The notes under the pieces are model-generated. The model did not search any database, was not told where the DNA came from, and was given only the letters and a program-made list of their open reading frames with translations. Both the position numbers and the translations under genes were made by a program. 64,000 nucleotides of DNA from a virus. Shown here piece by piece: positions 261 through 62,620 of the stretch. The stretch lies in UHGV virus genome UHGV-0072281; one strand, 5' to 3'. The stretch's first letter is position 1; each line of letters opens with the position of its first letter.

Positions 261-300
261 TCAGATATATATTACCTTAGTGAGATTACACAGTAATCTC
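261..300 (+). promoter_or_regulatory. Promoter-like motif TCAGATATATATTACC plus downstream inverted repeat (gagattac/gtaatctc)
   Basis: Same 15-16 nt motif recurs at 20149, 24537, 62581 (variants at 5299, 58236), each followed by a different short hairpin and then an RBS and gene. Confidence 0.5.
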
Positions 301-334
301 TTACGACTTGTTCTACAGATTAGGATTAATTATC

Positions 335-694
335 ATGGCTTACAATCACAACTCTATTGTTTTAGCAAAACGTAAATTCGGTCTTCATCTTTCTTACGTG
401 ATTCGTCATTTGACAGCGAAAGACATTACACAGCGTGAACTTGCCCAGCTTGCGAAAGTTTCACAACCGGTTATTTCATCTATTAAGAACGAACGCAGCG
501 AATGCCTGAGTCTCCCAATAATGATGAAGGTTGCTGATGCGATTCGTCTGAAATATCAGATTACGTTTAATTCTGTTAAAGGGAGTTGCTCAGTAACGGT
601 TCACGTAGAGTCTGCGTTGGACTACGTTGCAAATACGTCCCTTAAACGTACAGCGAAGAATATTCGTTTTGTTACTAACGGCGCAACACACTAA
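335..694 (+). CDS. Helix-turn-helix (XRE-like) DNA-binding protein
   Basis: HTH-like segment ITQRELAQLAKVSQPVISSIKN; AGGA RBS 10 nt upstream of ATG 335 (track ORF begins at in-frame TTG 308). Confidence 0.5.
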   Translation: MAYNHNSIVLAKRKFGLHLSYVIRHLTAKDITQRELAQLAKVSQPVISSIKNERSECLSLPIMMKVADAIRLKYQITFNSVKGSCSVTVHVESALDYVANTSLKRTAKNIRFVTNGATH

Positions 695-715
695 CCAACC
701 TAAAGGAGTATTATC

Positions 716-1402
716 ATGGCACCGAAAACTAAGAAAACTGAAGTTAAAGAAACTGAAGAAAAACCGGTTAACTTCTATAATGACGAACAGGTTAAGCAGA
801 CTGAGCCTAGCAAGAAGCTTGCGCTTATGCCGCCTACCACAGAAATACACGGGGATAAAATCTTAAGTTACACTCCGCGCATGAGTTTAGCGATCGATAT
901 TTACCATTACCCGGTATTCGACCTGTACACGCTTGTCTGTCGACTCGACGATGAGATACTGGCAGTCGTTCCAGGTATCCACAAAGAAAAACTGCTTACG
1001 GGTTCAGTCATTAGCGAGATTTTCCTGCGCCTGATGTTTAAATCAGACGATAAGAGAATCAGCCAGATTGCTGGTAAAATGACTGACTTCTTTGTTGAGG
1101 CTTCAACGTGGTTAGGCTTTCACCCAACGGCTTATTTCATTTTCGACACCAAAATGTTGTATGCTGAAATGGGCGACAGCGTTAAGTATCCTATCTTACT
1201 TAATGAAGAAGTCGTTCCGTTTTCCCTTTCCAGTCCTAACAAACATCTTCGCTTTCATCCGGCGTTAGAAAGCCTGATCGAACACCAACGGTTGGAAAAA
1301 TATTACGCTTATCATCGCATGTTCTTTGAGCTTCTGCGTGATAAATTAAGAGGCAAAGTTCCAGATTCTAGTGTATCGTTCACTAGTTCTAAGCTTTGGT
1401 AG
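716..1402 (+). CDS. Hypothetical protein
   Basis: 228-aa ORF with strong RBS AAAGGAG upstream of ATG. Confidence 0.65.
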   Translation: MAPKTKKTEVKETEEKPVNFYNDEQVKQTEPSKKLALMPPTTEIHGDKILSYTPRMSLAIDIYHYPVFDLYTLVCRLDDEILAVVPGIHKEKLLTGSVISEIFLRLMFKSDDKRISQIAGKMTDFFVEASTWLGFHPTAYFIFDTKMLYAEMGDSVKYPILLNEEVVPFSLSSPNKHLRFHPALESLIEHQRLEKYYAYHRMFFELLRDKLRGKVPDSSVSFTSSKLW

Positions 1403-1414
1403 TTTGTAACAAAC

Positions 1415-1443
1415 AGGGAGCTTCGGCTCCCTTTTTCTTTTTA
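1415..1443 (+). terminator. Rho-independent terminator
   Basis: Hairpin gggagc-ttcg-gctccc followed by TTTTTCTTTTT. Confidence 0.7.
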
Positions 1444-1488
1444 CAACTTTTTCTTTTGTTGTGAGGAAAGCCGATAAGGAGTATTAAA

Positions 1489-2475
1489 ATGGTATATCGT
1501 AAAACGATAGAAAGAACCTCTTCTGATTTAACAGTAGGACGCTTAGCCCGTAGAGATATTCGCAATCCTCAACTTCAGGCATGTTTAATGGGTCCTAACG
1601 GTGCGGTGATTCGTGAAGCACTGTGTAATACCGAGCTGAATACGTTCTCTTTACAAAAAGGAAAAACAATCCAAGGGTTTATCATCACAAAACACATTTA
1701 CGGTGATCCAACGTTACACTGCTTGTATATGCACGAAATTGTACCAGGCTGTTTGAACAAACTGAGTCTTCTATTGGTACTTGACTATACGGGTTTTACG
1801 TACCTTAACCGAATTGCCAGAGGCGTGGAAGAAATTGCTGAGCTTAACGATTTAGGGTTTAGACATACCCACACAGCATATCGTTTAGGTACACGTACGC
1901 TATCGGATGTCACTTTACCGACGAACGTGAAGAACGTCTCCGGCGACTTCTATAAAGACTTAACCGGAGCACAACGTGAGCAGCTCATGACATTGTTTGG
2001 CACTAGTGTCGTTGAAAATATCAATGCTGACCCTGTAACGCGTTCTCGACAAATAATGCCGCAAGTTGAAACATTGGTGGAGTTAGTGCGGCACGTCAAT
2101 CACTACACTTACGTTTGGATGGGCGGTAATGACGTTGTGGGTGTGGTGCAAGTTAAATCACGTAATCTTAGTGAGTGCGAACTAAAAGCCATTGCGGTAA
2201 GTGAATCACACCGGGGCCGTGGGATTGGGCGTGCGTTGCTGTATCGTGCTTTACAGATTGCATCGACAACAGCGGCACCATTAGAAATAGGGTGTTACAA
2301 TAACAATTCAGCATTTAGACACCTGGCTGTAGATTTGTTTAAATTCCGTCCCTACGAGTACGAATTTGTTTTAGTGCGCGACGACGATGTCGTCAGTTGG
2401 GAGCGTCGGAAAAACCGCGTCGCGTTAGTGTTAGGCGACGAAATGTCAACGTTACAAGGCGGAATTAATGCATAA
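1489..2475 (+). CDS. Protein with C-terminal GNAT-like acetyltransferase motif
   Basis: 328-aa ORF; segment IAVSESHRGRGIGRALLYRAL resembles the GNAT acetyl-CoA binding motif; RBS AAGGAG. Confidence 0.45.
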   Translation: MVYRKTIERTSSDLTVGRLARRDIRNPQLQACLMGPNGAVIREALCNTELNTFSLQKGKTIQGFIITKHIYGDPTLHCLYMHEIVPGCLNKLSLLLVLDYTGFTYLNRIARGVEEIAELNDLGFRHTHTAYRLGTRTLSDVTLPTNVKNVSGDFYKDLTGAQREQLMTLFGTSVVENINADPVTRSRQIMPQVETLVELVRHVNHYTYVWMGGNDVVGVVQVKSRNLSECELKAIAVSESHRGRGIGRALLYRALQIASTTAAPLEIGCYNNNSAFRHLAVDLFKFRPYEYEFVLVRDDDVVSWERRKNRVALVLGDEMSTLQGGINA

Positions 2476-5253: not shown

Positions 5254-5298
5254 TTTCGATATAACATCAGCATTGCGTTGTTAACGGTCTAAAAAATT

Positions 5299-5331
5299 TA
5301 AGATATATTTCATCTATGTGAGAATTCTCAC
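5299..5331 (+). promoter_or_regulatory. Promoter-like motif variant (AGATATATTTCATC) plus palindrome gtgagaattctcac
   Basis: Resembles the TCAGATATATATTAC family; sits 25 nt upstream of RBS of gene at 5355. Confidence 0.35.
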
Positions 5332-11357: not shown

Positions 11358-14300
11358 ATGGCTAAAGCGGTAAAGAAAATTCGTTTACACGATTTACGTC
11401 CATACACCGGTGATATCGGTGAAGGCGTTTTACTTTTCTCCAAGGATGAGAAAGATTATAAGTTACCAGTCCGTGAGGTTATTGCAGATATTGACACCGT
11501 ACGTAATGCGGTGGCTGATGCACAAACAGCAGCAGCACAATCACAAGAAGCTGCAACTCAGGCTACGCAAGCAAAAGTTTTAGCAGAAGCAGCAAAACAA
11601 CAAACTGACACAGTTGCGGCAACGGTTGCACAACAAGCGCAAACCGTAACCGAAAAAGCAACAGAAGTCAGTACAAAACATACCGAAGTGTTAGCCGCGA
11701 AAACGGCGGTAGACGCTCAGGCTGTGTCCATTAATGAGAAAGCACAAGCGGTAGCGACAAGTGAGGCAAACGTCACACAAGCAGAAACTACCGTTACGAA
11801 GAAAGCAGAAACTGTTGCCACACAAGCCGGGCGGGTCGAACAGTCACTTACGGCAGTTAACGAAGCTGTTGCGTCGGTAGAGTCGTCGAAAGCTGCCGTA
11901 GAAGCTAAAGCAACACAAGTTACTTCAGACAAAGAAACCGCAGAGAATGCGGCAACTCGTTCTGAGGCAGCCGCTAAGCGTGCGGAAGAAATCGTTGCTC
12001 AAGGTACTGTTGATGCAACAACGACCAGTAAAGGTGTCGTTAAACTTAATAATACCTTAACCAGTGACTCTGTTACTGAAGCGGCTACACCGTCAACGGT
12101 TAAGCAGTTAAATGATGAATTGCAGTTAAAAGCAAACCGTCACAACCCAACTTTTACCGGTGTGGTAAAAGCACCGACTCCTGCTTCGGATTCTAACGAC
12201 ACGAGCGTCTCAACGACTGCATGGGTACGGCAAGCGATTGCTGAATTAGTGGACTCTTCACCCGAGACGTTAGATACGTTATCAGAAATTGCAGCCGCGT
12301 TAGGAAACGATCCTAACTTTGCGACAACGATAACGAACCAACTAGCGGGTAAACAGCCGTTAAGTCCGTTACTGACAGCGATTGCCGCAGTCACCACCGC
12401 TGCAAACAAACTCCCTTACTTTACCGGTAGTAATCAGGTAGGGTTAGCGGATTTCACCTCGACTGCTCGCGAATTATTAGCGAAAGGGTCGACGGCCGAT
12501 ATCATCAGCTTCCTGGGGTTGAAAACCACCGTTGATAAAGCTGCGGGCGCTATGCAACGTAGTTCTAACGGTGCCGATATTCCCGATAAAGCCACCTTCG
12601 CGAAGAACATCGGGTTGTCAGCAGAGACGTACCTGAAGTTTAATGGGGAGATGCCAGTAGATGCAGACATCAACACCTTCGGCCCGGTTGAAGCGTTTAT
12701 GGGCGTTTGGTCTAAAGCCACGTCTACGAACGCAACAGTTGCAAAGAATTTTCCAGAAGAAAACGCAGTTGGTTGTTTAGAAGTTTTCAAAGCGGGTAAC
12801 TACAGCGGAAGTCAACGTTTTACTGTACGTAACGGTAACATCTATACACGTCATCTTACTGCTGCATGGAATGGGACAAACGGTCCTTGGTCAGAATGGC
12901 GTAATGTTGCTGGTTCCGCCAGAACGTTGAACGAACAAAATAATCTGAATGACTTGGGTGGTGAGGCCGCACTAGGTGTTTGGAGAAACAGTTCGAGTAC
13001 ATTAGCAACAACCGCGCTGAATTATCCTGAAGAAGGCTCTTTTGCCCAGGGCGTATTAGAAGTTCTCAAAGGTGGCAACTATAGTTACACACAACGCTAC
13101 ACTACCCGCAGAGGCAATGTATACGTTCGTTGTCTACAAGCCACGTGGGACGCTTCAAACCCGCAATGGGAAGAATGGCGCTGTGTTGGTCATCAATCTG
13201 TCAGCACATATTTCGAAGGCGATCTCGACACGTTAACTTCGCCTAACCGTTATAGCATTACTGATAAAGCGACAAACGTTCCTTTAATCGACGGTACTAA
13301 AATTATCGGTATCTTGGACGTCAGTCGTCGTTTTGATAACATTAGTGTCGAACAAAAATTCACCTCGTTTGGTTCTGGGAGCAAAACTACAGGGCGTATT
13401 TTCACACGTGTATTCTCCGGTCAATCAAACGGTAAATGGAGTGAGTGGCGAGAGGTTTTCACCTCGTATTCACTTCCGTTAGTTTTAGGTATCGGTGGGG
13501 TTGCAGCTAAGGTTGACCCGTTAGACTGGCAAACCTACGACTTCGTTCCTGGACAGATGTTAACGACGCCGTTGAACACCATGAAAAACATTCCTGCAGG
13601 AATGGATTGGGGTACTATTGACGGTAACTTAGTTAACATCCTTGTAGGGCCGTCTGACGACACCGGTACTGGTCGGAGTATGCTGGTTTGGCGTAGCACA
13701 GTGTCTGTTGCTAACTATCGCTTCTTTGCGGTACGTATCGCTGGTGAGAAGGGTAGTCGTACGATTACGCCGCGTCAGATGCCTGTGTTGAACGCAGCGC
13801 ACACCTGGTCAGAGAAACAAACGTTCTCTAAAGGTTTAGCGGGTGAATTAACCGGTAATGCTTCTTCAGCAACGAAACTTCAAACAGCCCGTTTAATCGG
13901 CGGCGTAAGTTTCGACGGCACCAAGGACATTGCACTCCCTGGCGTTAACGCACAAGGTACGCAGAACACCACTGGGAATGCGGCTACCGCAACCAAATTA
14001 CAAACGGCTAGAAATATCAACGGTGTGAAATTCGATGGCTCTGGAGACATCAATATCAACACCTTAGTAGGTCGTGGACGTGTCACTGCTCTGGCTGGAT
14101 CAAACAAAGGTACACCTGGTATCCAGATGTACGAGGTTTACAATAACGGTTATCCGACCGCGTATGGTAATTTACTGCATTTAGGTGGTGCTACTGCCGT
14201 AGGTGAAGGTGAACTACTGATCGGTTGGTCTGGTACCAGTGGCGCACACGCACCTGTTTATATCCGTAGTCGTCGAGACACTACAGATGCGCCGTGGTCA

Positions 14301-19540: not shown

Positions 19541-20101
19541 ATGAAATATGCTTATTTAAAAGACGGTAATGTGATCGACTGGAATGTTACCGAAGACATG
19601 ATTGCTTTGCGTGGCCACACTGTAGATATTTATACGCCTGTAGTAGAATCTGCTAAACCGGTTGTTAACCCTGATTGTTATATCGTGTTCGAAACAACAC
19701 CAAAACTGGTAAAAGGCAAGCTGGTTCAACAGTGGGTGACTGAAGTGCTGCCTAAAGAAACGGTAGTACGTAACCAGAAGGCACGTTTAGCGGAAATTCG
19801 TTATGCGAAAGAAACTGCCGGGATTACGTTTAAAGACCAAACTATTCCTACGACACGTGATGTACGTTATCAGTTAATTCAGTCTAAACACGTTGATTCT
19901 ACGCAACCTATTAACTGGAAGCTAGGCGATACGTGGCTAAGTCTTACTCAGGAAGACATTGATGCGCTGCTGGTTGCAATCGCAACTTATGTTGAGAAAT
20001 GCTACGCGGCAGAACGCACAGTCTCCGAGAAAATCACTAAGGTGAAAGCACCTGAAAAACTGGATGTAGAAACCTTATTTAACGACGCTTTCGCAGCGTA
20101 A
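19541..20101 (+). CDS. Hypothetical protein (possible fibre assembly factor by position)
   Basis: 186-aa ORF immediately downstream of fibre gene; function inferred only from position. Confidence 0.5.
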   Translation: MKYAYLKDGNVIDWNVTEDMIALRGHTVDIYTPVVESAKPVVNPDCYIVFETTPKLVKGKLVQQWVTEVLPKETVVRNQKARLAEIRYAKETAGITFKDQTIPTTRDVRYQLIQSKHVDSTQPINWKLGDTWLSLTQEDIDALLVAIATYVEKCYAAERTVSEKITKVKAPEKLDVETLFNDAFAA

Positions 20102-20104
20102 CAC

Positions 20105-20148
20105 GGTAGCAGGGGCTAAGCCCCTGCTACCTTTTTCTTTATTTTTTC
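20105..20148 (+). terminator. Rho-independent terminator
   Basis: Hairpin ggtagcagggg-ctaag-cccctgctacc followed by T-rich run. Confidence 0.8.
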
Positions 20149-20194
20149 TCAGATATATATTACCTAGAGGAGAGTGAAATTTACATTCACTCCA
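20149..20194 (+). promoter_or_regulatory. Promoter-like motif TCAGATATATATTACC plus downstream inverted repeat (gagtgaa/ttcactc)
   Basis: Exact motif copy; precedes gene 20222. Confidence 0.5.
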
Positions 20195-20221
20195 TTAGTT
20201 ATAGCCGAAAAGGAGGATTAG

Positions 20222-24254: not shown

Positions 24255-24525
24255 AACAGTTGTATTTCGTAGTAATGGTGATGTGGTTTTGTATCGTGGT
24301 AAGAAACGTATTCGTACGTTAGAATACCGTGAAGCAAAACGTTTTGTTGAAGAGTGTGCATGGTTAATGCATTACGAAGGGAACTATCGTGCTATCTTAG
24401 AAGCTCCGCGTTTAGAACGTGCGGTTGCACAGATGGCAATAGGTAATCCTAAGAACTGTTACCTGGCCCGTAAGCCAAAATACTTACAGCGTCTTTCGTT
24501 AGGCAGCTTTATTGCTGGATTTTAA
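24244..24525 (+). CDS. Hypothetical protein
   Basis: ATG 24244 with GGAG RBS, overlapping upstream stop; track ORF begins 24223. Confidence 0.45.
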   Translation: MKRETVVFRSNGDVVLYRGKKRIRTLEYREAKRFVEECAWLMHYEGNYRAILEAPRLERAVAQMAIGNPKNCYLARKPKYLQRLSLGSFIAGF

Positions 24526-24536
24526 TAAAAATAATT

Positions 24537-24577
24537 TCAGATATATATTACCTAGGTGAGAGTTCAGTTACTCTCAC
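24537..24577 (+). promoter_or_regulatory. Promoter-like motif TCAGATATATATTACC plus downstream inverted repeat (gtgagagt/actctcac)
   Basis: Exact motif copy; precedes gene 24608. Confidence 0.5.
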
Positions 24578-41618: not shown

Positions 41619-41652
41619 TCTCCTTTATTCGAGACGTCCTTGTCCCGAGTCA

Positions 41653-46836: not shown

Positions 46837-46931
46837 CGTAAAGACTCCTACTTTTTAAATAAAATGGATACCCCTCCCCATTACAGGGAGGGGTTACCTA
46901 CGGACACACAACTGCCCGCAGGCAGCCTGTC

Positions 46932-51116: not shown

Positions 51117-51126
51117 AAAATTCTCC

Positions 51127-54100
51127 TTAATCGCGAATGATTACCGCCTGCACTAAATTGTTGGTGTCGATAAACGACATTACGCGCTCCTTGTTAAGAT
51201 AAGGAGGTATCGGTAACGCAGCGTAATCCGCCAGGTTGTTATTAAACTCGGTTGCCACTAGCGCATTAAGCGTTTCAGGGTCTGAGCTTGTCCCGGCCAA
51301 TTCCATAACACGTACACGATTTAACGAGGAATAGTTGCTGATATAATCCAACAGCGTACCGTAGAGTTTATTCCCGGTTATGCTGTCCGCCGTAGAGCGG
51401 ATATTGGCACGCACTTCGTCCTCATAAAGTCCCCCTAATCCGTAGTAAATAGGGGTATACGGATCGTTAACGATAGGCGCGAGGTTGAACCCGGTTAAAC
51501 GGTCGGTCAGCGAGATTTTCTGCGTAGTACCACCTACCGCCGTACAGCTTACGTATTTATCTGCGGCAGATAAATACACCACAATAGTGTAAACAGTACC
51601 TGCTAAGGTCAGCGTTGCGTTAAACGTTAATTCGTTATTCGCATCACGCGTATGGCTAAATGACACATCGGGTTGTAACGTACTCCACGGTGCAGGTGTA
51701 ACACGTTTCGTTGGCGTGAAACCTAACACCACAGATTTCCCGTTACCGAAGTTTAAACCAAACCCGGCGTAACAATATTCACCATTACTGTCAGTTAAAC
51801 GATAGCCGCGAGTGATAAGTAACGACAACCGCATAAACTCGCCATCGGTGTTTTTCCAACAACCTAAAATGGTTTCTAACACCGTGCCGGTTTTTGCGTT
51901 GCTTTCGGTTTCCCAACTGACTCGCATCCCCGCATTGCTAAATAGGGGGAACAGGTTGTGGATAAATCCATGAACGTTATCACTTACCCCTTTCGCGTCA
52001 AACATCCACTTCGCCGTAAGCTGATCGTATTTCACACCGTCGAGCGCTTTATAACCGTCTCCAACCACATAACGCCAGTCTGCTTCACCACGCACAACCG
52101 CTTGGAGTCCAGAAGCCCAGCAGGGCGCACCTACTGTTAAATTGCTTAACCCCAACACCGCGCGCGAGGCATAACGTTGAATGTGTGCGTTATCGTTAGC
52201 GACGTGGTCTTTCAGCTCACGGAAATCGCCTAACCGCGTCACGTTACGCAACTCCACTACGTCCACTTCGGAAAGATCATTAACAACGAGCCTTCCCACA
52301 CGCGTCATGGTATCCGTCTCAGCTTGATTATAGCTGTCGTGAATAATGTACTTCGCTTTGTTATCGACAATGTCAACAAAAATCCCTGCGTAAACTTCCT
52401 TATTCAGATTCGGGAAACGTTCGGTGACGTTAACCGACATCAACGGTACGTCGTACGTTTCACCACCAATGAAATACGTGGAAGCAGGAAGTGTCACCAG
52501 GATATTGTCTTTAACCGTAACGTCAATTAAGTCGTTACCAGACTTACCAAAACGAATAATGTCAATGCGAGCGCCTGAGTCAACACCACCGACAGTGTTC
52601 TCCAAATCTTCAATCTGGGAAGTCTGCGCCATCACCACACTACTATCGAGTGCTAAAGTGTCATCATCCACATCCAGACCGAATTTAATCAGACCCCGTT
52701 TCGTGGTGTCTGCGTTAGCAACACCGAATACGGAAGACGGGTGTTGGTGAACCTTCGGTGAGTATTTGTCCAGCTCGGTCTGCTGTGCAACAGAAATCGG
52801 TAAGTCAACGTCCGGGGTATTCGCAACGTTACCTAAACCAAAGGTAATTTTGTCGATAGTAACCGAACTGGTAAGCTGCATGTCGTTGATGTACGACTTG
52901 GCGGCAACTAACTTACCGGTAAACTCTGCGTCCAGTTTTTCAATTAACGCGGGTGTCGCTGCAAGGTTTTCAGCCGTACCGAATTCGTCCGTTAACTGCC
53001 AGCAGGCTAAGGTAGTAACGTCATTGGCAACCGGAAGGATAAACGTTACGACAAAGGGCGATGCTTTAATCCCGCTGCCAGTAAGTTCTACGGTAGACGT
53101 AGACGCACCGTAGAACAGACCTGTACCGCCTGCGGTATTACCCGGCAAATACGGCCCGACTGTAGTGGGGTCTAAGAGCTTCTTACCACGCCACAGTAAT
53201 CCACGGTCATCAGGATATAGCACAAGCTGGTTATCGCCCGCCTGTAACGTTACCGGGTTGTTACCCACGTTAACGTCAGTAGAACCTTGACCGATGAACT
53301 TAATGGATTTCGGATCAACGACAAACTGGGCACCTAAACGTGTCTCGTCAACAACATCAGGTGCTTTCTTAATGGTAACCGTGTTACCTTTGTTTTGCGA
53401 ACTAATGGTGACAGCATCAGCAACGTTGTTAATCCACGTTTTAAAATGATATTGATTTTCCAACGCTTCTAGCGCAGAATCCATGTTATCAAAATTAATT
53501 CTGGCACTGTAAGTTTTACCGTTTACCGTAACGACAGCATCGAACACGTTCCCCGTGCGCTTCAACTGGAAACGTAATGAGAAATCGCTGTTAGGTATTG
53601 CCGGATCAGGAGCTTGAGAAATATACCTTACCTGCGGAACTGTACCAACAGTATTAAGGCTTAGCGAAACTTCAATAGAGATAGTATCGCCCCAGATTCC
53701 GGCTTTTATCTCGACAAACTTGCCAGCGATTGTGCCCGGGTTCTCGTAAAACCGCATAATCGCGGAACCGACCGCCTCATTACCCGACGCAGTTTTTATA
53801 CCAGTGACAATAAAGTCAATATCTTGCAGGTTAGCGGGTACCGCATTAAAAGAAGCACTAAATCCATTCTTCGTTCCTGTGTAACGAAGCGCGCCGTGAT
53901 ACCTGTGACCACTACTAACATAGTTTTCGCTAAAATAAGGGTTCACGTATTTAGACATCGAAACCGGATCAACTTCTGTCGTGAACGAAGTAAAACCGGG
54001 CAGCGTTCCAATGGTTCCGTCGGCCGTTTTCGTAGTTGACGTGCGCAGTAGTTTCTTTTGCGCAATCAATGTTTCTTGCGTTGGATACTTAGCATTAACA

Positions 54101-55452
54101 TAATCTGTTAACTGCGGCTTCGTTTTTCCGTAAGCTAACGCTGTATCCGTCGCAATACCATTCAACTCTAACGCACGGATCGCCCCCCACGTGTCGCTGT
54201 GCGGGTTGTCCTTACGTGTAACGTGTTCGTGTGCGGGTGCGTTACGATACAACTGCTCAACTAACTGATGGTACTTAACGATTAACTGATAAACGTCATT
54301 ACTTACGTCAGCTTCTGGCGAACCAGGTAACGCAAGGAATTGAGCGTAATCGTTTTCAGCCGCCCACCAGTTTAAGTTAACGTTGGTTTTGTATTTCAGC
54401 CACTTCGCAACGTCTGTTTTGCTGTAACCTGCTGAGAATTCGTCTGGCGGTGTGTCAACGTTAAACGTATAGTCCATGGACTGTTTGTTAGTCGTCACCT
54501 CGATAACGTATACACCGTTACCCGGTTGACGGACAACGCTAAACGTTAACTCGCCTTTTAATTCATCGTCGGTCAAACCGTTGATTAACGTATAATCGTA
54601 ATCGGTTGAACCACTGCCTAACGCAACCGTCAGTCGTAGGCCAATTTTACGTTGTTTTAATTGGAGACGAAGGATACTTGCGCCACCGTTCGCGTAGCAC
54701 AACATCCAATCGATTTGTTCATTCGGGTTAATACTCCCCATATTCGGAAAAATAGCCGGAATACGGTATTTCATCGACAGGGAATATTCATTTAACGTGG
54801 TGGTTTTGTACGTAACGGAGAAACGACGTTTGGCGGTGTTGTAGGTATACCCACCTTTGTTATCGTACGTTGCGTACTGTTCAGACGTGATAACCGTACC
54901 ATTAGCACGATGTTCGATATCTAACGTGTTGCGCGCAATCGGGTCTAACCGATTCACCACGTTGCCTAACGAATCACCTAAGCCTGCAATGGCCTGCATT
55001 AATTCCAGTTCACCTTTCCAGTTTTCCCAGTCGAACTGAATGTCAACCGGTGGAAAGTAAACATCACCAATAACGGTATCCCATTGACACGCAGACGGGT
55101 ATTTATCTTTATTGAGTTCGCGTTCTGCGGTAATCTGTTCTTGGGTCGCTTCACCACAACCTACGGCGTGGTAATCTACCGTGAAATTCGATTTGTATTT
55201 GTCGTTAACAATCCAAATCATCCCGTGCACGAGATAGGCTGTGCGCAACATACCGGTCTCGTACGGGTGTGTAATAACGTAATCGTCGCCTAAGGTCAGT
55301 ATTTTGCCGCCGCTCTTGACCACCAGGGATGTGGTGAAAAAAGGGGCGTGGGCAGGTACCAACATTCGGTACTTCGTACCAATGACGGCGACCGCTTCAC
55401 CGGTTATTTTATTCCCCGGTTCTTTGAAGTGTGGGTCTAGGACGACAGCCAT
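51127..55452 (-). CDS. Giant tail fibre / tail spike-like structural protein
   Basis: 1441 aa; N-terminal block AHAPFFTTSLVVK...GDDYVI homologous to neighbours; first gene of minus-strand operon. Confidence 0.65.
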   Translation of the reverse strand: MAVVLDPHFKEPGNKITGEAVAVIGTKYRMLVPAHAPFFTTSLVVKSGGKILTLGDDYVITHPYETGMLRTAYLVHGMIWIVNDKYKSNFTVDYHAVGCGEATQEQITAERELNKDKYPSACQWDTVIGDVYFPPVDIQFDWENWKGELELMQAIAGLGDSLGNVVNRLDPIARNTLDIEHRANGTVITSEQYATYDNKGGYTYNTAKRRFSVTYKTTTLNEYSLSMKYRIPAIFPNMGSINPNEQIDWMLCYANGGASILRLQLKQRKIGLRLTVALGSGSTDYDYTLINGLTDDELKGELTFSVVRQPGNGVYVIEVTTNKQSMDYTFNVDTPPDEFSAGYSKTDVAKWLKYKTNVNLNWWAAENDYAQFLALPGSPEADVSNDVYQLIVKYHQLVEQLYRNAPAHEHVTRKDNPHSDTWGAIRALELNGIATDTALAYGKTKPQLTDYVNAKYPTQETLIAQKKLLRTSTTKTADGTIGTLPGFTSFTTEVDPVSMSKYVNPYFSENYVSSGHRYHGALRYTGTKNGFSASFNAVPANLQDIDFIVTGIKTASGNEAVGSAIMRFYENPGTIAGKFVEIKAGIWGDTISIEVSLSLNTVGTVPQVRYISQAPDPAIPNSDFSLRFQLKRTGNVFDAVVTVNGKTYSARINFDNMDSALEALENQYHFKTWINNVADAVTISSQNKGNTVTIKKAPDVVDETRLGAQFVVDPKSIKFIGQGSTDVNVGNNPVTLQAGDNQLVLYPDDRGLLWRGKKLLDPTTVGPYLPGNTAGGTGLFYGASTSTVELTGSGIKASPFVVTFILPVANDVTTLACWQLTDEFGTAENLAATPALIEKLDAEFTGKLVAAKSYINDMQLTSSVTIDKITFGLGNVANTPDVDLPISVAQQTELDKYSPKVHQHPSSVFGVANADTTKRGLIKFGLDVDDDTLALDSSVVMAQTSQIEDLENTVGGVDSGARIDIIRFGKSGNDLIDVTVKDNILVTLPASTYFIGGETYDVPLMSVNVTERFPNLNKEVYAGIFVDIVDNKAKYIIHDSYNQAETDTMTRVGRLVVNDLSEVDVVELRNVTRLGDFRELKDHVANDNAHIQRYASRAVLGLSNLTVGAPCWASGLQAVVRGEADWRYVVGDGYKALDGVKYDQLTAKWMFDAKGVSDNVHGFIHNLFPLFSNAGMRVSWETESNAKTGTVLETILGCWKNTDGEFMRLSLLITRGYRLTDSNGEYCYAGFGLNFGNGKSVVLGFTPTKRVTPAPWSTLQPDVSFSHTRDANNELTFNATLTLAGTVYTIVVYLSAADKYVSCTAVGGTTQKISLTDRLTGFNLAPIVNDPYTPIYYGLGGLYEDEVRANIRSTADSITGNKLYGTLLDYISNYSSLNRVRVMELAGTSSDPETLNALVATEFNNNLADYAALPIPPYLNKERVMSFIDTNNLVQAVIIRD

Positions 55453-58207: not shown

Positions 58208-58235
58208 TAGGTCGTTCCTTAGATCGGAAATAGAT

Positions 58236-58290
58236 TCAGATATATTTTACTTAAGTGAATAGGAGCTGAAGTGCGAATTCAGCTCCTATA
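58236..58290 (+). promoter_or_regulatory. Promoter-like motif variant (TCAGATATATTTTAC) plus 11-bp-stem hairpin (taggagctgaa/ttcagctccta)
   Basis: Motif family member; sits in divergent intergenic region. Confidence 0.4.
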
Positions 58291-58595
58291 GGCACGTTTC
58301 TTTCGAAACGGAGTTACCACGTGATTAAGAGACAGACCAATGTCTACTGAGAAGAAAAGCGGATTGGACGAAGTCATCGAACTGTTCAAACGCTACAACC
58401 CAGCTATTCCTCGGTAATCATAGTATTACTTAAAATTTACAGATTGTCCCTTTATTCTGCTACTCGGGATACCGGTAGGGGGTAGGGGGCAATATGTATA
58501 CGGATATAAATAGCGGAGGTATACGTAGTATACCGACATACTCTTCCCAGAGGAACGTAGTGACTTCCTTATTCCAGTTTAGGAGAATAAACCCC

Positions 58596-59330
58596 ATGAG
58601 AGAATTATTAGACGATATCTTTACCAACACCAGTTTAGAACTTTCTTCTACGCTGGTTAACGAGCTAATAAAACAATACCAACCTGCTAAGTTAATCTCT
58701 GTCTGGATAGTTAAACCCGAAGAATATCCAGACAGTGACATTATCGACTGTATGATTGACGAATACGCTATAGGCAGTTACGCCAACCAGATCTACTTTA
58801 TTCTTAATACCGAAACCAGCATCATGTTAATCTATAAGTTGATCAGTGACGCCGAACTTGAAGTTGTGGCTGACCACATTCGTCTTCTTGCGAATGCGCC
58901 TACTGGTTACAAAGTTGCGCTTATTGGTGACGGTTGGCCTTTGCCACCGCTATTCACTTACTTCCCTCTGTTTAAACATGGGATAGGGTTACTCCGTCAT
59001 GCAGAAAATCTTCCCGATAACGTAGAGTTATCACTGCTTGGGCCCGGCATCGATCTTTATCCATTAAAAGACGAGGGCACGCTATATGGTTTGCGCATCT
59101 ATGTTTCTGTGTTAAAGGGATACCGCGTTATTGAATTGATTGCATCAGACTTAGCAAAACAGATCCCCGAAGCAGAAACGATTTCTAAAGCCACCCACCT
59201 GGTTGAAATTAACCCGGACGATCCGTTATTACGGTATCACAAAGAAATTGACCTTCGTAAAATCGCCACGATAAGAGGATGGGATTGTGCTGAGATTACG
59301 AATAATAACCTGTTACTAGTACGTAAGTAA
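58596..59330 (+). CDS. Hypothetical protein (possible member of tandem paralogue family)
   Basis: ATG 58596 with AGGAG RBS (track begins 58494); C-terminus GW...NNNLLLV loosely matches family motif. Confidence 0.5.
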   Translation: MRELLDDIFTNTSLELSSTLVNELIKQYQPAKLISVWIVKPEEYPDSDIIDCMIDEYAIGSYANQIYFILNTETSIMLIYKLISDAELEVVADHIRLLANAPTGYKVALIGDGWPLPPLFTYFPLFKHGIGLLRHAENLPDNVELSLLGPGIDLYPLKDEGTLYGLRIYVSVLKGYRVIELIASDLAKQIPEAETISKATHLVEINPDDPLLRYHKEIDLRKIATIRGWDCAEITNNNLLLVRK

Positions 59331-59350
59331 AAAACCTAAAGGAGAATAAA

Positions 59351-59908
59351 ATGTCTACTATTGAACTGAAACAACAAGTTATTGGGTTTATTAAGCTGGG
59401 TACAGGTAAACACCGACTTGATTATCCTTGCGTTATACAGTCTAACATTATCCCGGTCGATACAATGATTACCGGTCTTCAGGTTGAAGAATTTGATGGA
59501 GATGCTGTGGTTTGGGAACGCCATTTCACACGACTTAATTATCGTAAAGTCGGAGATAGTTTTACCGAAATATTCCGTCATCTGTTTTCCGGTACCGGAT
59601 GGAAAGTAACGAGTGCGTTCTACGGTGGCAATGTTGTTACGCTTCTAGACAGAGGAGATGCACGTTATCTCGTGAACTTTACTTTCGCAAGACACTATGC
59701 GTATTTCCCTAACCCTCTTACGTGTACGTTAAGTAACCCAGGAATACTACTAACAGATAAAGAAGCAGACGTTCTACTCGCCGAACTGCGAAAAGACGGT
59801 TGCGACGTTGACGATTGGGAAACATTAATCGCGGTTGCCAAAGCACACGGTTGGTACAGCGTACGTAAAATCGGTCAGCAGTTATTATTCTTAGCTTACC
59901 CTGTTTAA
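59351..59908 (+). CDS. Hypothetical protein, tandem paralogue family
   Basis: 185 aa; C-terminal HGWYSVRKIGQQLLFLA; conserved upstream CCTAAAGGAGAATAAAATG. Confidence 0.6.
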   Translation: MSTIELKQQVIGFIKLGTGKHRLDYPCVIQSNIIPVDTMITGLQVEEFDGDAVVWERHFTRLNYRKVGDSFTEIFRHLFSGTGWKVTSAFYGGNVVTLLDRGDARYLVNFTFARHYAYFPNPLTCTLSNPGILLTDKEADVLLAELRKDGCDVDDWETLIAVAKAHGWYSVRKIGQQLLFLAYPV

Positions 59909-59938
59909 GTAACAAAAAAACCTAAAGGAGAGTAAAAA

Positions 59939-61090
59939 ATGCGAAATATTATTTCTAAACCAGGACATGTCAAGATCCTAAAAGAACTGATGGACAGATG
60001 CTATAATCGGACTTGGCCTCTGCCAAGCTTAACCATCGAGTCTTCATTACAACGCGAGTTGTTTGGTTATAACTTGGGCTGCTGCGTACTGAGTGAATAC
60101 GATGAGATTATCGCGCCTGTCGATGTCTGTACTTACGATGAAGAAATTGAAGGTTACCAGTTCGAGGTTTACACAAATTCTGGACTAAATTACCGTAAAC
60201 TCGTTGTTAGAGAAAAGAGTAGCGGCCGGAAGATTATGTTTAAGGTCTTCCCAAGCGGTAAAGTCAGTAGTTTATGTTTTCAGCTTGAGCAAGTGTCCTT
60301 TCACGGCGCAGCTATTTTAACTAAAGCAGAACGTGCGTTATTAAGCGGGTTAATCGGCTTTGAAGCAAAAACCATCAAAGTAGAACAGGAACTCACACGA
60401 AACGATTTCGGCTCGACCTGGTACGAAAGTTTCTTCCGCTACGAAATTTTAAGTGATAAAGCTATCAAACTCACTTACCGTTCTACCGACGATCTCGTTT
60501 ACCACATTTTAATTAGCGGCGAACCCCATCTGATTATTGAAGACAAAGGAGAAAATCAAATGTCTGGCTTAAGAGACGAATTAGCCCAATTCATTCGTGA
60601 CGTCGAAGAGAAAAGCAAGAGCGATCACATTTTCTCACAACGCTATCCTGAACTTATTGACGAAACCACCGATAGTGTCGTCGATGTTATACGCATTTTC
60701 CCAAGTGGTTTTGCAATCTACCGACTGCCTAGCGTTAATCAGCTTAAAGTCATGGAAATGCTAAAAGACGTTTTAGCAGAAGCGGGTTGGGAATATCGTT
60801 TCGATTGCAATTTCGAAGGGATGGCGTTATTCGTTACAAAGAAAAATTATACGTTGTCAATCGATCTGCCCAAAAGTCAATATTACAGTTTCTTCCCAAA
60901 AGCGTATGACCGCACTGAAAAAGAACCTGCGTTGTTACTCGATGCGGCAGAATCCAATACGCTAATGATGCGTCTGCGGATGGTTGACAAAAAGTTAAAT
61001 ACCGGCCATCTAACGACGATCGGTAAAGATTACGGTTGGAAATCTGTCGAACCGTACGGCAGTCAGCTGCTGTTTGTTGCTGACCTTTAA
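59939..61090 (+). CDS. Hypothetical protein, tandem paralogue family
   Basis: 383 aa; C-terminal YGWKSVEPYGSQLLFVA. Confidence 0.6.
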   Translation: MRNIISKPGHVKILKELMDRCYNRTWPLPSLTIESSLQRELFGYNLGCCVLSEYDEIIAPVDVCTYDEEIEGYQFEVYTNSGLNYRKLVVREKSSGRKIMFKVFPSGKVSSLCFQLEQVSFHGAAILTKAERALLSGLIGFEAKTIKVEQELTRNDFGSTWYESFFRYEILSDKAIKLTYRSTDDLVYHILISGEPHLIIEDKGENQMSGLRDELAQFIRDVEEKSKSDHIFSQRYPELIDETTDSVVDVIRIFPSGFAIYRLPSVNQLKVMEMLKDVLAEAGWEYRFDCNFEGMALFVTKKNYTLSIDLPKSQYYSFFPKAYDRTEKEPALLLDAAESNTLMMRLRMVDKKLNTGHLTTIGKDYGWKSVEPYGSQLLFVADL

Positions 61091-61117
61091 TAAGTAAAAA
61101 TACACTTTCTCTAACTG

Positions 61118-61143
61118 CCGCGCTTTAGTCGCGGCTTTTGTTA
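61118..61143 (+). terminator. Rho-independent terminator (probable)
   Basis: Hairpin gccgcg-ctttagt-cgcggc followed by TTTTGTT. Confidence 0.55.
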
Positions 61144-61157
61144 AGAAGGAAAAAGAA

Positions 61158-61931
61158 ATGAAAATCCATTTAGATCACCTCTTTAAATCTGAACCGTATA
61201 TGGTTAAAGGTTCGCTGGCTTCATTGTTGCTAGACGATAGATTTCATCGAACGCTGCAATTACAATCGGTCGAATCCGCGCCAACAGAAGACGTGGGTCT
61301 TTATCAACGTATCACTTATACACGTGGAGAATATCGGCGATATAAACCTGATACGCTAACCGTTAAGCTCTGGCAAGTGGCCACAGGCAAAGTATTAACT
61401 TATCGCGCTGTTGGTCTGTACTACGTTGAACGTGCCTACGCATGGTTAGAAGAAGTTAAAGAAATGGATTACGACCGTTTAAGCAAAAGACTACGCGATA
61501 ATAACGCCAGTTTACCGCTACGTAATTATTTCTCCACAATTGAAAATAGTCGTTGTTTCGTTTCACGCGAATCCATGATATTGCCTGGGGCTGATGTTCA
61601 GACGACACTAAAAGATGTGGTTGTGAGGAAAATCTTTCATGAATCTGAACACGTTGGATTTCGTATCTATTTAACGCACAAGAGGCCATTTACCGTGATT
61701 CATCTTGTTACCGTACCCGAAGGCTCGGCAGTCGTACGTGAACTTCCTGACGCACGTGACCGTAGCCCTAATGAGCCACTTTACTTAATGTCAGGAACAA
61801 AATCAGAATCTTTGATGTCCCGTTACAGCATGGTTGATGTTGTTGATACTGCTATGAAATTAGGTTGGAAAGAAGTACAGCAACACGGCAAACAATTGCT
61901 GTTTATCGCAGATGTAAATCTCAATAACTAA
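61158..61931 (+). CDS. Hypothetical protein, tandem paralogue family
   Basis: 257 aa; C-terminal LGWKEVQQHGKQLLFIA. Confidence 0.6.
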   Translation: MKIHLDHLFKSEPYMVKGSLASLLLDDRFHRTLQLQSVESAPTEDVGLYQRITYTRGEYRRYKPDTLTVKLWQVATGKVLTYRAVGLYYVERAYAWLEEVKEMDYDRLSKRLRDNNASLPLRNYFSTIENSRCFVSRESMILPGADVQTTLKDVVVRKIFHESEHVGFRIYLTHKRPFTVIHLVTVPEGSAVVRELPDARDRSPNEPLYLMSGTKSESLMSRYSMVDVVDTAMKLGWKEVQQHGKQLLFIADVNLNN

Positions 61932-61943
61932 AGAGGTGGTACC

Positions 61944-62522
61944 GTGTACCGATTAATAGAAATGAGAAAAGACGTTTGGTTGGAAAACCTCGTCGATGGG
62001 GAGCTTGAGGGAATAGAGCTTTCCTTACCAGAGAGAGCGGACACGGTATTGGCCTTTCTGGTAAAACAGGCAGACCGTGAACCGGTAGGAATCTTCACTG
62101 TGGACTATAAAGACCCGCGAGGGATTCATTTACGGAACATTTGCAGTGGTTTGGAAAACTTACCGGCTAATCCGTTCTTAAACTACGCAAAACGTAAACT
62201 CCGACCGGGACAACACCTCTGGGTAACGTTAGCGCCTGACATTAGAATCATGCGTGACGATTACTCGGCGTTTGTACAGGCAACGAAAGTCAGTCTGTAT
62301 AACCCGAACGCAGAGCGTACCGATATGCCGTTTATAATTACCTTAGAAGACGATGGAACGCAAGAAGGTATTGAGGCAATTACGGAATTAGTAAACTCTT
62401 ATCCGGTTGCCACTATCGAGTTAGAAAACCCAGGTCGTTTACAACTGGGTGACCTGCTCGAATGGATTGAACTGAATACAGAATTCTTAATCAATTCTCG
62501 TCAGTATCGATTCGACGTTTAA
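61944..62522 (+). CDS. Hypothetical protein
   Basis: GTG start with AAGAGGTGG RBS. Confidence 0.55.
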   Translation: MYRLIEMRKDVWLENLVDGELEGIELSLPERADTVLAFLVKQADREPVGIFTVDYKDPRGIHLRNICSGLENLPANPFLNYAKRKLRPGQHLWVTLAPDIRIMRDDYSAFVQATKVSLYNPNAERTDMPFIITLEDDGTQEGIEAITELVNSYPVATIELENPGRLQLGDLLEWIELNTEFLINSRQYRFDV

Positions 62523-62526
62523 CAAC

Positions 62527-62560
62527 GGTGGGGTGTAAACCCCACCTTTTATTTTTTGTT
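62527..62560 (+). terminator. Rho-independent terminator
   Basis: Hairpin ggtggggt-gtaa-accccacc followed by T-run. Confidence 0.8.
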
Positions 62561-62580
62561 CTCTAACATTAAAAATAATC

Positions 62581-62620
62581 TCAGATATATATTACTTAGG
62601 TGAGAGTTAAGATTAACTCT
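62581..62620 (+). promoter_or_regulatory. Promoter-like motif TCAGATATATATTAC plus downstream inverted repeat (gagagttaa/ttaactct)
   Basis: Exact motif copy directly after terminator; precedes gene 62652. Confidence 0.5.

What the first reader, a model, noticed from the sequence alone, without database searches (positions are those of the whole stretch)
261..62620. Recurring promoter-like motif TCAGATATATATTAC(C) followed by gene-specific hairpins
Seen in sequence: exact or near-exact copies at 261-276, 20149-20164, 24537-24552 and 62581-62595, with variants at 5301-5314 and 58236-58250. Each lies on the plus strand, usually right after a terminator, and is followed within ~5-10 nt by a different perfect inverted repeat (e.g. 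gagattac/gtaatctc, gtgagagt/actctcac) and then an RBS. Inference: a phage-specific promoter class, host sigma70-like or phage-RNAP-dependent, whose transcripts start with a 5' stem-loop; the hairpins could stabilise mRNA or bind a regulator.
Basis: partly seen in the sequence, partly recalled or inferred. Interest (0 to 1): 0.6.

Follow-up and report, generated by a model that had tools for sequence, protein, structure and literature searches.

The report
Jumbo-phage early promoters with 5' hairpins
The repeated motif is this giant phage's version of the known "early" promoter that phiKZ-like jumbo phages read with an RNA polymerase carried in the virion; the one less ordinary point is that in this enterobacterial clade nearly every such transcript starts with a small hairpin.

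Summary
The window holds six co-oriented, intergenic copies of one promoter-like element: 261, 5299, 20149, 24537, 58236 and 62581. All are on the + strand, and each is followed by a stem-loop and a ribosome-binding site.

The motif is larger than reported, about 40 bp: gATTaAAAataaTT-TCAGATATATATTAC-yTAr-GTGAGA. It matches the published early-promoter consensus of RNAP-encoding jumbo phages (phiKZ TATATTAC; 201phi2-1 ..TATATTACDWHDGTG). The window is syntenic with Erwinia phage Asesino of the SPN3US group, which carries phiKZ-type RNAP genes. In that genome all 18 motif sites lie on one strand, just upstream of genes.

So this is a new member of a known kind. Its consensus string appears in no paper I could search. 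Recognition by the virion RNA polymerase is inferred by homology, not measured.

The hairpins are real. Leaders fold far better than controls, the helix usually starts at the inferred +1 to +3, and orthologues keep it through compensatory changes. Its 5' arm is often the conserved GTGAGAGT, so it is only partly gene-specific. phiKZ leaders lack the hairpin, so it is specific to this clade. I found no description of it.

The most likely role is protection from 5'-end-dependent mRNA decay. That role is inferred.

The parts
247..285 (+). Early-promoter copy 1: -33 to +6, core TCAGATATATATTAC at 261-275, inferred start G280
   Evidence: Exact 15-mer. Weight-matrix score 50.4 bits.
282..300 (+). 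5' leader hairpin of copy 1 (GAGATTAC-aca-GTAATCTC). The HTH-protein gene starts at ATG 335.
   Evidence: -8.2 kcal/mol, helix begins at +3. The orthologue in L027 keeps a hairpin with a different stem sequence. HTH assignment.
5285..5323 (+). Weaker variant promoter: TAAGATATATTTCATctatGTGAGA, core at 5299-5313, inferred start G5318
   Evidence: 21.8 bits against a shuffle maximum of 8.0. 19 of 23 matches to the consensus.
5318..5331 (+). 5' leader hairpin of the variant copy (GTGAGAATTCTCAC palindrome). The gene starts at 5355.
   Evidence: -7.3 kcal/mol, z -2.65, helix begins at +1.
20135..20173 (+). Early-promoter copy 3: core at 20149-20163, start region reads AGGAGA instead of GTGAGA
   Evidence: Exact 15-mer. 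37.5 bits.
20172..20192 (+). 5' leader hairpin of copy 3 (GAGTGAA-atttaca-TTCACTC). The gene starts at 20222.
   Evidence: -7.4 kcal/mol, z -2.1. Conserved in orthologue L103.
24523..24561 (+). Early-promoter copy 4: core at 24537-24551, the best match to the family consensus
   Evidence: 59.6 bits. This was the only part of window 20000-32000 that megablast matched in GenBank jumbo phages.
24556..24577 (+). 5' leader hairpin of copy 4 (GTGAGAGT-tcagtt-ACTCTCAC). The gene starts at 24608.
   Evidence: -12.2 kcal/mol, z -4.8, helix begins at +1. Orthologues L033 and L090 have a different loop and keep the stem.
58222..58260 (+). Early-promoter copy 5: core TCAGATATATTTTAC at 58236-58250, divergent from the baseplate gene on the - strand
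   Evidence: One mismatch. 39.3 bits.
58255..58293 (+). 5' leader hairpin of copy 5 (12-bp core ATAGGAGCTGAA/TTCAGCTCCTAT at 58259-58289)
   Evidence: -21.1 kcal/mol, z -5.8. Two base pairs change on both sides among four orthologues, and 96% of cells are paired.
62567..62605 (+). Early-promoter copy 6: core at 62581-62595
   Evidence: Exact 15-mer. 58.1 bits.
62602..62621 (+). 5' leader hairpin of copy 6 (GAGAGTTA-agat-TAACTCTT). The gene starts at 62652.
   Evidence: -7.2 kcal/mol, z -2.3, helix begins at +3.
225..244 (+). Intrinsic-terminator-like hairpin closing the upstream operon before copy 1
20105..20131 (+). Intrinsic-terminator-like hairpin (12 bp, T-run) before copy 3
62527..62546 (+). 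Intrinsic-terminator-like hairpin before copy 6

Best explanation
**What it is.** The six elements are early promoters of a phiKZ-related, RNAP-encoding jumbo phage of the SPN3US/Erskinevirus group. I put this at about 0.85.

**How it is read.** By homology, the multisubunit RNA polymerase packaged in the virion and injected with the DNA recognises the roughly 40-bp element: an A/T-rich block at -33 to -20, then TCAGATATATATTAC containing a -10-like TATATT. It starts transcription about 7 nt downstream, at the G of the conserved GTGAGA. The start position is inferred, give or take 2 nt.

**What it drives.** Each promoter heads an operon of small, mostly uncharacterised genes. These include an HTH protein and a DNA methyltransferase. 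The operon often begins right after the terminator of the preceding one.

**The hairpin.** The transcript starts with a 7-12 bp stem-loop beginning at +1 to +5. Its 5' arm is usually the conserved initial transcribed sequence, and its 3' arm has co-evolved to pair with it. The hairpin ends 10-20 nt before the Shine-Dalgarno sequence, so it does not occlude it.

**Most likely role of the hairpin (about 0.45, inferred).** It hides the 5' end from RppH and from the 5'-end sensor of RNase E. That would stabilise the first mRNAs, which are made by a few injected polymerases. The same principle applies to the ompA and papA leaders and to the T7 gene 10 leader.
For: **Shown here**
- *Copies:* four exact 15-mers, one near-exact copy and one variant. 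All lie on the + strand and between genes, and nothing comparable exists elsewhere on either strand.
- *Consensus:* it extends over -33..+6, with A-27 invariant in 55 of 55 related instances.
- *Published motifs:* it matches phiKZ TATATTAC and 201phi2-1 TTTRARR_BTATATTACDWHDGTG. phiKZ early promoters have an extended -10 plus a T-rich block upstream of -19. 201phi2-1 promoters are conserved at -10, -20 and -30 and sit in front of hypothetical genes. A review states that every RNAP-encoding jumbo phage has such a -10-centred AT-rich motif upstream of its early operons.
- *Relatives:* megablast of 12 kb of the window against GenBank phages matched only the promoter, in about 240-kb Erwinia and Salmonella jumbo phages. 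The virion genes are about 76% identical to Asesino, phiEaH2 and SPAsTU.
- *Asesino:* it carries eight genes annotated as RNAP beta-type. Its gp40 matches the phiKZ protein gp55, annotated there as an RNA polymerase beta subunit (BLASTP E 3e-41). All 18 of its motif sites are on the + strand, 16-17 are intergenic, and one pair lies upstream of gp39-gp40.
- *Strand partition:* the - strand virion and baseplate block at 34-58.2 kb has no copy.
- *Hairpins:* in 50 non-redundant instances the mean leader free energy is -9.1 kcal/mol. It is -4.2 for chance hits of the same 15-mer and -3.6 for shuffles (p about 1e-10 and 5e-14). Across 36 sequence clusters the mean z-score is -1.9, and the first paired base is at +1 to +3 in 29 of them.
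- *Compensatory change in orthologues:* ggagc/gctcc versus ggggc/gcccc versus gggac/gtccc, and gagattac/gtaatctc versus gagagtta/taactctt in front of the same gene.

**From the literature**
- RppH and RNase E both need single-stranded 5' ends, which explains why 5' structures stabilise mRNA (PMC3997798).
Against: - No start site, timing or polymerase dependence was measured for this phage or any SPN3US-group phage in the papers I could read. The +1 position rests on analogy with a -10 element.
- The window contains no RNAP gene, so the presence of the polymerases is inferred from a syntenic relative.
- The element also looks like a sigma-70 promoter: TATATT as the -10, and about half of the family has TTGAtT at the right spacing.
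- For the stabiliser role, the sense strand folds only marginally better than the antisense strand (p = 0.05). A DNA-level or protein-binding palindrome is therefore not excluded.
- phiKZ early leaders manage without hairpins (22 sites, mean z -0.25), so the hairpin is not needed by this polymerase class in general.
- The roughly 50 instances come from related genomes and are not fully independent.
Confidence: 0.8

Rival explanations
1. These are strong host sigma-70 promoters, like T4 or T5 early promoters, used by the bacterial RNA polymerase immediately after injection. The extra conservation would reflect UP-element-like and discriminator preferences.
For: TATATT matches TATAAT at 5 of 6 positions. 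The family consensus has T(t)GAtT at -35..-30 with a 17-bp spacer in about half of the instances, plus an A/T-rich upstream block. The sites at 24537 and 5299 pass a 9-of-12 sigma-70 scan.
Against: Four of the six sites, including two of the three best by weight-matrix score, fail the sigma-70 scan. The 15 bp from -19 to -5 are identical in four window copies, and the 55 family instances share conserved flanks from -33 to +6. That is far more than sigma-70 requires. The same core and the downstream RTG are shared with phiKZ and 201phi2-1, where early transcription is independent of host RNAP and insensitive to rifampicin (PMC7598289; PMC13282480). In this phage family the injected DNA sits in a vesicle that separates it from host machinery.
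Confidence: 0.08
2. The promoter assignment is right, but the leader hairpin is a regulatory handle, not a stabiliser. It could bind a phage protein or nuclease that shuts off or processes early mRNAs at the early-to-middle switch. Alternatively it could be a promoter-proximal pause or attenuation signal.
For: The 5' arm (GUGAGAGU or GAGAUU) is conserved in sequence as well as in pairing, which would suit sequence-specific recognition. Hairpins accompany the TATATTAC class but mostly not the GATATTAT class of sites in Asesino, suggesting class-specific handling. Premature termination in 5' UTRs is common in phiKZ and 201phi2-1.
Against: Loops and stem lengths vary freely: loops of 3-12 nt and stems of 6-13 bp. 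Many hairpins use quite different sequences, for example AUAGGAGCUGAA and GAAUGAC. The stems are AT-rich, and five of the six window copies have no U-tract, so they are poor terminators. No candidate binding protein was identified.
Confidence: 0.2
3. The inverted repeat acts in DNA as part of the promoter, as in the hairpin promoters read by the virion RNA polymerase of phage N4.
For: Both systems use a virion-delivered polymerase. Sense and antisense strands fold almost equally well, as expected for a DNA palindrome.
Against: The repeat lies downstream of the -10-like element, at the inferred +1 to +25. It is not upstream of the start as in N4. Loop length is not fixed at 3 nt. phiKZ promoters of the same class have no repeat. 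The variable position of the helix, at offset 0-9 after TTAC, does not fit a fixed protein-DNA geometry. The polymerase family is multisubunit, not N4- or T7-like.
Confidence: 0.03

Closest known systems
Early (virion-RNAP) promoters of phiKZ and 201phi2-1, and the predicted motifs of OBP, EL and N1M2
   Same: They share the TATATTAC core centred near -10, an RTG(A) 4-5 nt downstream, and A/T-rich conserved blocks near -20 and -30. There are tens of copies per genome, intergenic and co-oriented, in front of small hypothetical early genes.
   Different: The local consensus is longer and stricter: TCAGATATATATTACyTArGTGAGA with GATTAAAAATAATT upstream. Transcripts almost always start with a hairpin, which phiKZ leaders lack. 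There is no experimental mapping for this clade in the literature I could reach.
5'-terminal stabiliser stem-loops (ompA and papA leaders; the T7 gene 10 leader GGGAGACCACAACGGUUUCCC, from my own knowledge)
   Same: A stem-loop lies within 0-4 nt of the 5' end, upstream of and separate from the ribosome-binding site. In T7, as here, the 5' arm is the conserved initial transcribed sequence of a phage-polymerase promoter. RppH and RNase E need a single-stranded 5' end (PMC3997798).
   Different: Here the hairpin is attached to a whole promoter class across many genomes, not to one gene. No half-life data exist.
N4 virion-RNAP hairpin promoters
   Same: A virion-packaged polymerase transcribes early genes, and an inverted repeat is associated with the promoter.
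   Different: The N4 hairpin is a DNA structure upstream of the start, with a 3-nt loop, read by a single-subunit polymerase. Here the repeat lies in the transcribed leader, its loop varies, and the polymerase is multisubunit.
PeSL cassettes (promoter-early stem-loop) of T4-like phages
   Same: Short composite terminator-plus-early-promoter repeats sit between small variable genes. Three of the six copies here sit right after a terminator. One related contig (L073) carries the 24537-type promoter and leader in front of a different gene, which hints at cassette-mediated shuffling (PMC2839356, PMC4122927).
   Different: PeSLs are sigma-70 early promoters, and their stem-loop is the upstream terminator. 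Recombination at the repeats was not tested systematically here.

Membership tests
Early virion-RNAP promoters of RNAP-encoding (phiKZ-like) jumbo phages | Highly conserved AT-rich element of about 10 nt centred near -10, with a TATATTAC-type core | tested here: met
   TATATTAC is exact in four copies. The other two read TATTTTAC and TATTTCAT. The published consensus is quoted.
Early virion-RNAP promoters of RNAP-encoding (phiKZ-like) jumbo phages | Further conserved A/T-rich blocks near -20 and -30 | tested here: met
   gAtT.aAaataaTt at -33..-20. A-27 is present in 55 of 55 instances, A-32 in 49 of 55 and T-30 in 48 of 55.
Early virion-RNAP promoters of RNAP-encoding (phiKZ-like) jumbo phages | Many copies per genome, intergenic, co-oriented with the downstream operon and absent from late-gene blocks | tested here: met
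   All six window sites are on the + strand and intergenic, and none lies in the - strand structural block. In Asesino all 18 sites are on the + strand and 16-17 are intergenic.
Early virion-RNAP promoters of RNAP-encoding (phiKZ-like) jumbo phages | The genome encodes virion and non-virion multisubunit RNAP subunits | tested here: inconclusive
   No RNAP gene was found among the window proteins I scanned. The syntenic relative Asesino has eight annotated genes. Its gp40 matches the phiKZ protein gp55, annotated as an RNA polymerase beta subunit, at E 3e-41. The rest of this phage's genome was not available.
Early virion-RNAP promoters of RNAP-encoding (phiKZ-like) jumbo phages | Transcripts start a few nt downstream, appear first, and need neither host RNAP nor new protein synthesis | not testable with these tools
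   This needs dRNA-seq or 5'-RACE with and without rifampicin and chloramphenicol.
Bacterial sigma-70 promoters | -35 TTGACA and -10 TATAAT hexamers separated by 16-18 bp | tested here: inconclusive
   The -10 is good (TATATT). The -35 reaches the 9-of-12 threshold at only two of six sites. The family consensus has a partial TTGAtT.
N4-type DNA hairpin promoters | A hairpin with a 5-7 bp stem and a 3-nt loop upstream of the start site, read by a single-subunit virion RNAP | tested here: not met
   The hairpins lie at the inferred +1 to +25, with loops of 3-12 nt. The related polymerases are multisubunit.
5'-terminal mRNA stabiliser stem-loops | A stem-loop beginning within about 0-4 nt of the transcript's 5' end and not overlapping the ribosome-binding site | tested here: met
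   The first paired base is at +1 to +5 in all six window leaders and at +1 to +3 in 29 of 36 family clusters. This depends on the inferred start site.
5'-terminal mRNA stabiliser stem-loops | Removing the structure shortens mRNA half-life in an RppH- or RNase E-dependent way | not testable with these tools
   This needs half-life measurements on stem and compensatory mutants.
Intrinsic terminators or attenuators | A GC-rich stem followed directly by a U-tract | tested here: not met
   The stems are AT-rich, with tails such as TTACGAC, TTAACC and AGGCAC. The scan flags only the 20172-20192 hairpin, weakly.
Rfam RNA families | A match at the gathering threshold | tested here: not met
   No hits in the whole window.

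The most novel reading that the evidence does not exclude
The obligatory 5'-terminal hairpin is more than a generic stabiliser. It would be a clade-specific tag on transcripts made by the virion polymerase. One version is a handle for moving early mRNAs out of the membrane-bound early-infection vesicle, or for recognition by a phage factor. Another is the enterobacterial counterpart of phiKZ's protein-based inhibition of the RNA degradosome. Dip is that phiKZ inhibitor (from my own knowledge), and no Dip homologue was detectable in Asesino or the window. How mRNAs leave the vesicle is listed as an open question in a 2026 review.
Probability: 0.1. Interest if true: 0.7.

Novelty: new member of a known kind. 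Interest (0 to 1): 0.3.

Why it matters
**For annotation.** The six sites mark the starts of early operons in an uncultivated jumbo phage of the SPN3US group. They give a sharp 40-bp model for finding early genes in related genomes. Those genes are where host-takeover and anti-defence functions tend to sit.

**For biology.** The promoter itself adds little, because the class is established. The useful extra is the comparison:
- Enterobacterial members of the family attach a 5'-terminal hairpin to almost every early transcript.
- phiKZ does not.

That contrast gives a simple, testable handle on how the first mRNAs of a nucleus-forming phage survive host RNases. It also offers ready-made promoter-plus-leader parts for engineering these phages.

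Tried and rejected
- **Rfam.** A scan of the whole window gave no family.
- **Sigma-70 scan.** Consensus scans around all six sites gave only 2 of 6 weak passes.
- **N4-like DNA hairpin promoter.** Rejected on geometry.
- **Attenuator or terminator reading.** Rejected because the stems are AT-rich and lack a U-tract.
- **Hairpin as a general feature of the promoter class.** Rejected. The 22 phiKZ sites give a mean z of -0.25, with one site below -2.
- **Sense versus antisense folding.** Meant to show an RNA-level structure, but only marginal (p = 0.05).
- **phiKZ Dip in Asesino and the window.** tblastn found nothing. This is weak evidence, because the protein evolves fast.
- **Asesino gp39 against the phiKZ nuclear-shell protein.** BLASTP showed no similarity. 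I therefore do not claim that the promoter-shell-RNAP arrangement is shared, only the RNAP homology.
- **Published start-site coordinates.** The phiKZ paper of Ceyssens et al. 2014 is not held. No supplementary tables are held for the dRNA-seq and ONT-cappable-seq papers. The distance from TATATTAC to +1 could therefore not be taken from data.
- **The motif string in the literature.** GATATATATTAC occurs in no held paper. No paper combines Chimalliviridae, early genes, hairpin and promoter.

Full report
**Observation**

The 15-mer TCAGATATATATTAC occurs exactly at 261, 20149, 24537 and 62581. A one-mismatch copy lies at 58236. All are on the + strand. From base composition I estimate about 3e-4 exact copies expected by chance in the two strands, so this cannot be chance.

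Aligning the flanks shows that conservation continues downstream, as TCAGATATATATTAC-yTAG-GTGAGAGT.

I built a weight matrix only from related sequences outside the window. It finds exactly these six sites, at 59.6 to 21.8 bits. The next-best position on either strand scores -5.5, and shuffles reach at most 8.0. By comparison with the ORF list, all six lie between plausible genes and point into a downstream + strand gene. Three follow an intrinsic-terminator-like hairpin directly: 225-244, 20105-20131 and 62527-62546.

Each site is followed by a stem-loop and then a Shine-Dalgarno sequence and ATG. The data fail that test clearly, in favour of a real signal.

**Identity of the element**

Megablast of window 20000-32000 against about 50,000 GenBank phage records matched nothing except the roughly 60 bp around the 24537 copy. 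Those matches were in about 240-kb jumbo phages of Erwinia (Huxley, Machina, the pEa_SNUABM series) and Salmonella (SPN3US-like SPFM, SPAsTU, STsAS). The virion-gene block at 34-58 kb is about 76% identical to Erwinia phages Asesino, phiEaH2 and Stratton and to Salmonella SPAsTU. Gene order in the window follows Asesino from about 96.8 to 166 kb:
- HTH protein and DNA methyltransferase
- tail fibre and a family of virion paralogues
- endolysin and radical-SAM genes
- giant virion proteins and baseplate

. The last 5 kb of the window is 100% identical to an IMG/VR viral contig. The source is therefore an uncultivated member of the SPN3US/Erskinevirus group.

Published work describes this motif as follows:
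- The phiKZ early promoter consensus is TATATTAC, that of 201phi2-1 is TTAWTAVAA_HYWTTTRARR_BTATATTACDWHDGTG, and OBP and N1M2 have ..KATATTATYWAAGTG (PMC7058600).
- dRNA-seq of phiKZ describes an extended -10 box plus a T-rich block upstream of -19 at 32 start sites (PMC8244752).
- ONT-cappable-seq of 201phi2-1 finds conservation at -10, -20 and -30, always in front of hypothetical genes (PMC11512511).
- A review states that every RNAP-encoding jumbo phage has such a conserved AT-rich motif centred near -10 upstream of early operons. These motifs define promoters for the virion-packaged polymerase (PMC7598289).

The window motif fits this point by point.

**Wider sampling**

About 50 non-redundant instances lie in 205-246-kb contigs and share the extended consensus. 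Several of these contigs have the exact lengths of SPN3US, phiEaH2, Huxley and CR5. The remaining hits are chance matches with unrelated flanks, which makes them a natural control.

The family consensus is gAtT.aAaataaTt-TCAGATATATATTAC-yTAr-GTGAga. A at -27 is invariant in 55 of 55 instances.

In the complete Asesino genome the matrix finds 18 sites above the shuffle maximum. All are on the + strand, and 16-17 are intergenic, 50-120 nt upstream of a gene (read against the annotation). Asesino has eight genes annotated as RNAP beta-type. Its gp40 is a clear homologue of the phiKZ protein gp55, which is annotated as an RNA polymerase beta subunit (E 3e-41). Two motif sites lie upstream of gp39-gp40.

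The phage family, the polymerase genes and the promoter architecture therefore go together. What is not shown is recognition by the virion RNAP, early timing, or the start site in this clade. These are inferred from phiKZ, 201phi2-1 and AR9.

**The hairpins**

If TATATT is taken as -12..-7, the start is the G of GTGAGA, give or take 2 nt. All six window leaders then fold into a helix starting at +1 to +5. Free energies are -7.2 to -21.1 kcal/mol and z-scores are -1.1 to -5.8.

| Set | Mean 40-nt leader free energy (kcal/mol) |
|---|---|
| Family promoter instances | -9.1 |
| Chance hits of the same 15-mer | -4.2 |
| Shuffles | -3.6 |

The differences are significant at p about 1e-10 and 5e-14. 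After collapsing to 36 clusters below 70% identity, the mean z is -1.9 and 19 of 36 fall below -2. The first paired base is at +1 to +3 in 29 of 36 clusters. The uninterrupted helix most often begins at the third transcribed base.

Orthologous leaders keep the helix while the sequence changes:
- At 58236 the stem reads ggagc/gctcc, ggggc/gcccc or gggac/gtccc in different phages. Two pairs change on both sides, 96% of cells are paired, and the loop varies freely.
- In front of the same HTH gene, the window has gagattac/gtaatctc and a relative has gagagtta/taactctt.

The 5' arm is frequently the conserved GTGAGAGT or GAGATT, so the hairpins are variations on one theme. They are not unrelated gene-specific structures.

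The hairpins end 10-20 nt before the Shine-Dalgarno sequence, so they do not mask it. They are AT-rich and have no U-tract, so they are poor terminators.

phiKZ does not share the feature. Its 22 promoter-like TATATTAC sites have leaders with a mean free energy of -3.2 and a mean z of -0.25, and only one falls below -2. In Asesino the hairpin goes with the TATATTAC-type sites. It is much less common at a second sub-class, ACAGATAGATATTATcttgGTGA.

**Mechanism**

The best-supported chain has three steps:
1. The injected virion RNAP binds the 40-bp element and starts at GTGAGA. This is inferred by homology, at about 0.85.
2. The nascent RNA folds at once into a 5'-terminal stem-loop. The structure is shown computationally and supported by conservation.
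3. The paired 5' end resists RppH and the 5'-end-dependent entry of RNase E. Both need single-stranded 5' termini (PMC3997798). This would prolong the life of the first phage mRNAs. This step is inferred, at about 0.45.

The T7 gene 10 leader is a close analogy, from my own knowledge. There, too, the conserved initial transcribed sequence of a phage-polymerase promoter forms the 5' arm of a stabilising stem-loop.

The rivals are:
- recognition by host sigma-70 (about 0.08)
- a regulatory, processing or attenuation role for the hairpin (about 0.2, compatible with the promoter assignment)
- an N4-like DNA hairpin (about 0.03)

The sense-versus-antisense folding test was only marginal (p = 0.05). 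An RNA-level function is therefore favoured by position and context, but not proven.

**Comparison and novelty**

The promoter class is known, and similar motifs have been predicted for every RNAP-encoding jumbo phage. This is a new member of that class. I found no paper that states this clade's consensus or describes a systematic 5' hairpin on early leaders. The held library is incomplete, however, and key papers were not readable.

The hairpin regularity and its absence from phiKZ are a modest new observation that can be tested. The most novel reading not excluded is that the hairpin is a functional tag of virion-RNAP transcripts. It might serve export from the early-infection vesicle, which is an open question. 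It might instead be an alternative to phiKZ's degradosome inhibitor. I give this about 0.1.

**Verdict**

It is mostly explained by existing knowledge. Interest is 0.3.

Noticed in passing
L122-L126 (Asesino NC_031107.2): 16335, 24554, 73979, 74898, 111654 and others: A second sub-class of the motif, ACAGATAGATATTATcttgGTGA, is also strictly on the + strand and intergenic. One example lies upstream of gp39-gp40, the homologue of phiKZ RNAP subunit gp55. These sites mostly lack the leader hairpin. They could be a weaker early class or a distinct temporal class. The only site in the window that leans this way is 5299.
   Followed up: partly
window 58255-58494: The 58236 promoter has an unusually long leader of about 240 nt before the 278-aa ORF. 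It contains a second conserved hairpin (cgtttc-tttc-gaaacg, 58295-58310) and a 25-codon ORF (58340-58417). The second hairpin is conserved in L119 and L065 but replaced in L073. This may be a small early protein or a non-coding leader RNA.
   Followed up: partly
L073 9505-9600 compared with window 24537-24610 and 62652: A related contig carries the 24537-type promoter, hairpin and leader through to the Shine-Dalgarno sequence, but in front of a different gene. The orthologue of the window's 62652 gene lies about 440 nt further on. This looks like promoter-cassette-mediated gene shuffling, as described for PeSL elements of T4-like phages.
   Followed up: partly
window 40413-55452 (- strand): Four adjacent virion proteins of 401, 1727, 1394 and 1441 aa cross-match the same PHROG families (2163, 7449, 8078, 7557). 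They form a tandem paralogue family of giant structural proteins, as in Asesino gp187-gp190.
   Followed up: no
window 35181-36503 and 39018-39929 (- strand): Two radical-SAM domain genes sit inside the structural-gene block. They are syntenic with Asesino gp180 and gp181. Their function in the phage is unknown.
   Followed up: no
window 21525-22352: This 275-aa ORF has no PHROG match and is absent from the otherwise collinear relative L103, an indel of about 870 bp. Divergent segments also lie just upstream of the 24537 promoter, so this is a plastic early region.
   Followed up: no
window 59028-64000: 100% identical over 4973 bp to IMG/VR contig IMGVR_UViG_3300014543_000002 (L110). Four other uncultivated contigs of 150-225 kb match at 85-96%. 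The window's phage is not in the GenBank phage collection that was searched.
   Followed up: yes
window 11358-15674: A 1438-aa tail-fibre protein whose C-terminal 110 residues match the distal long-tail-fibre tips of T4-type phages (PHROG 1699, 11011, 5667). This suggests a swapped receptor-binding tip.
   Followed up: no
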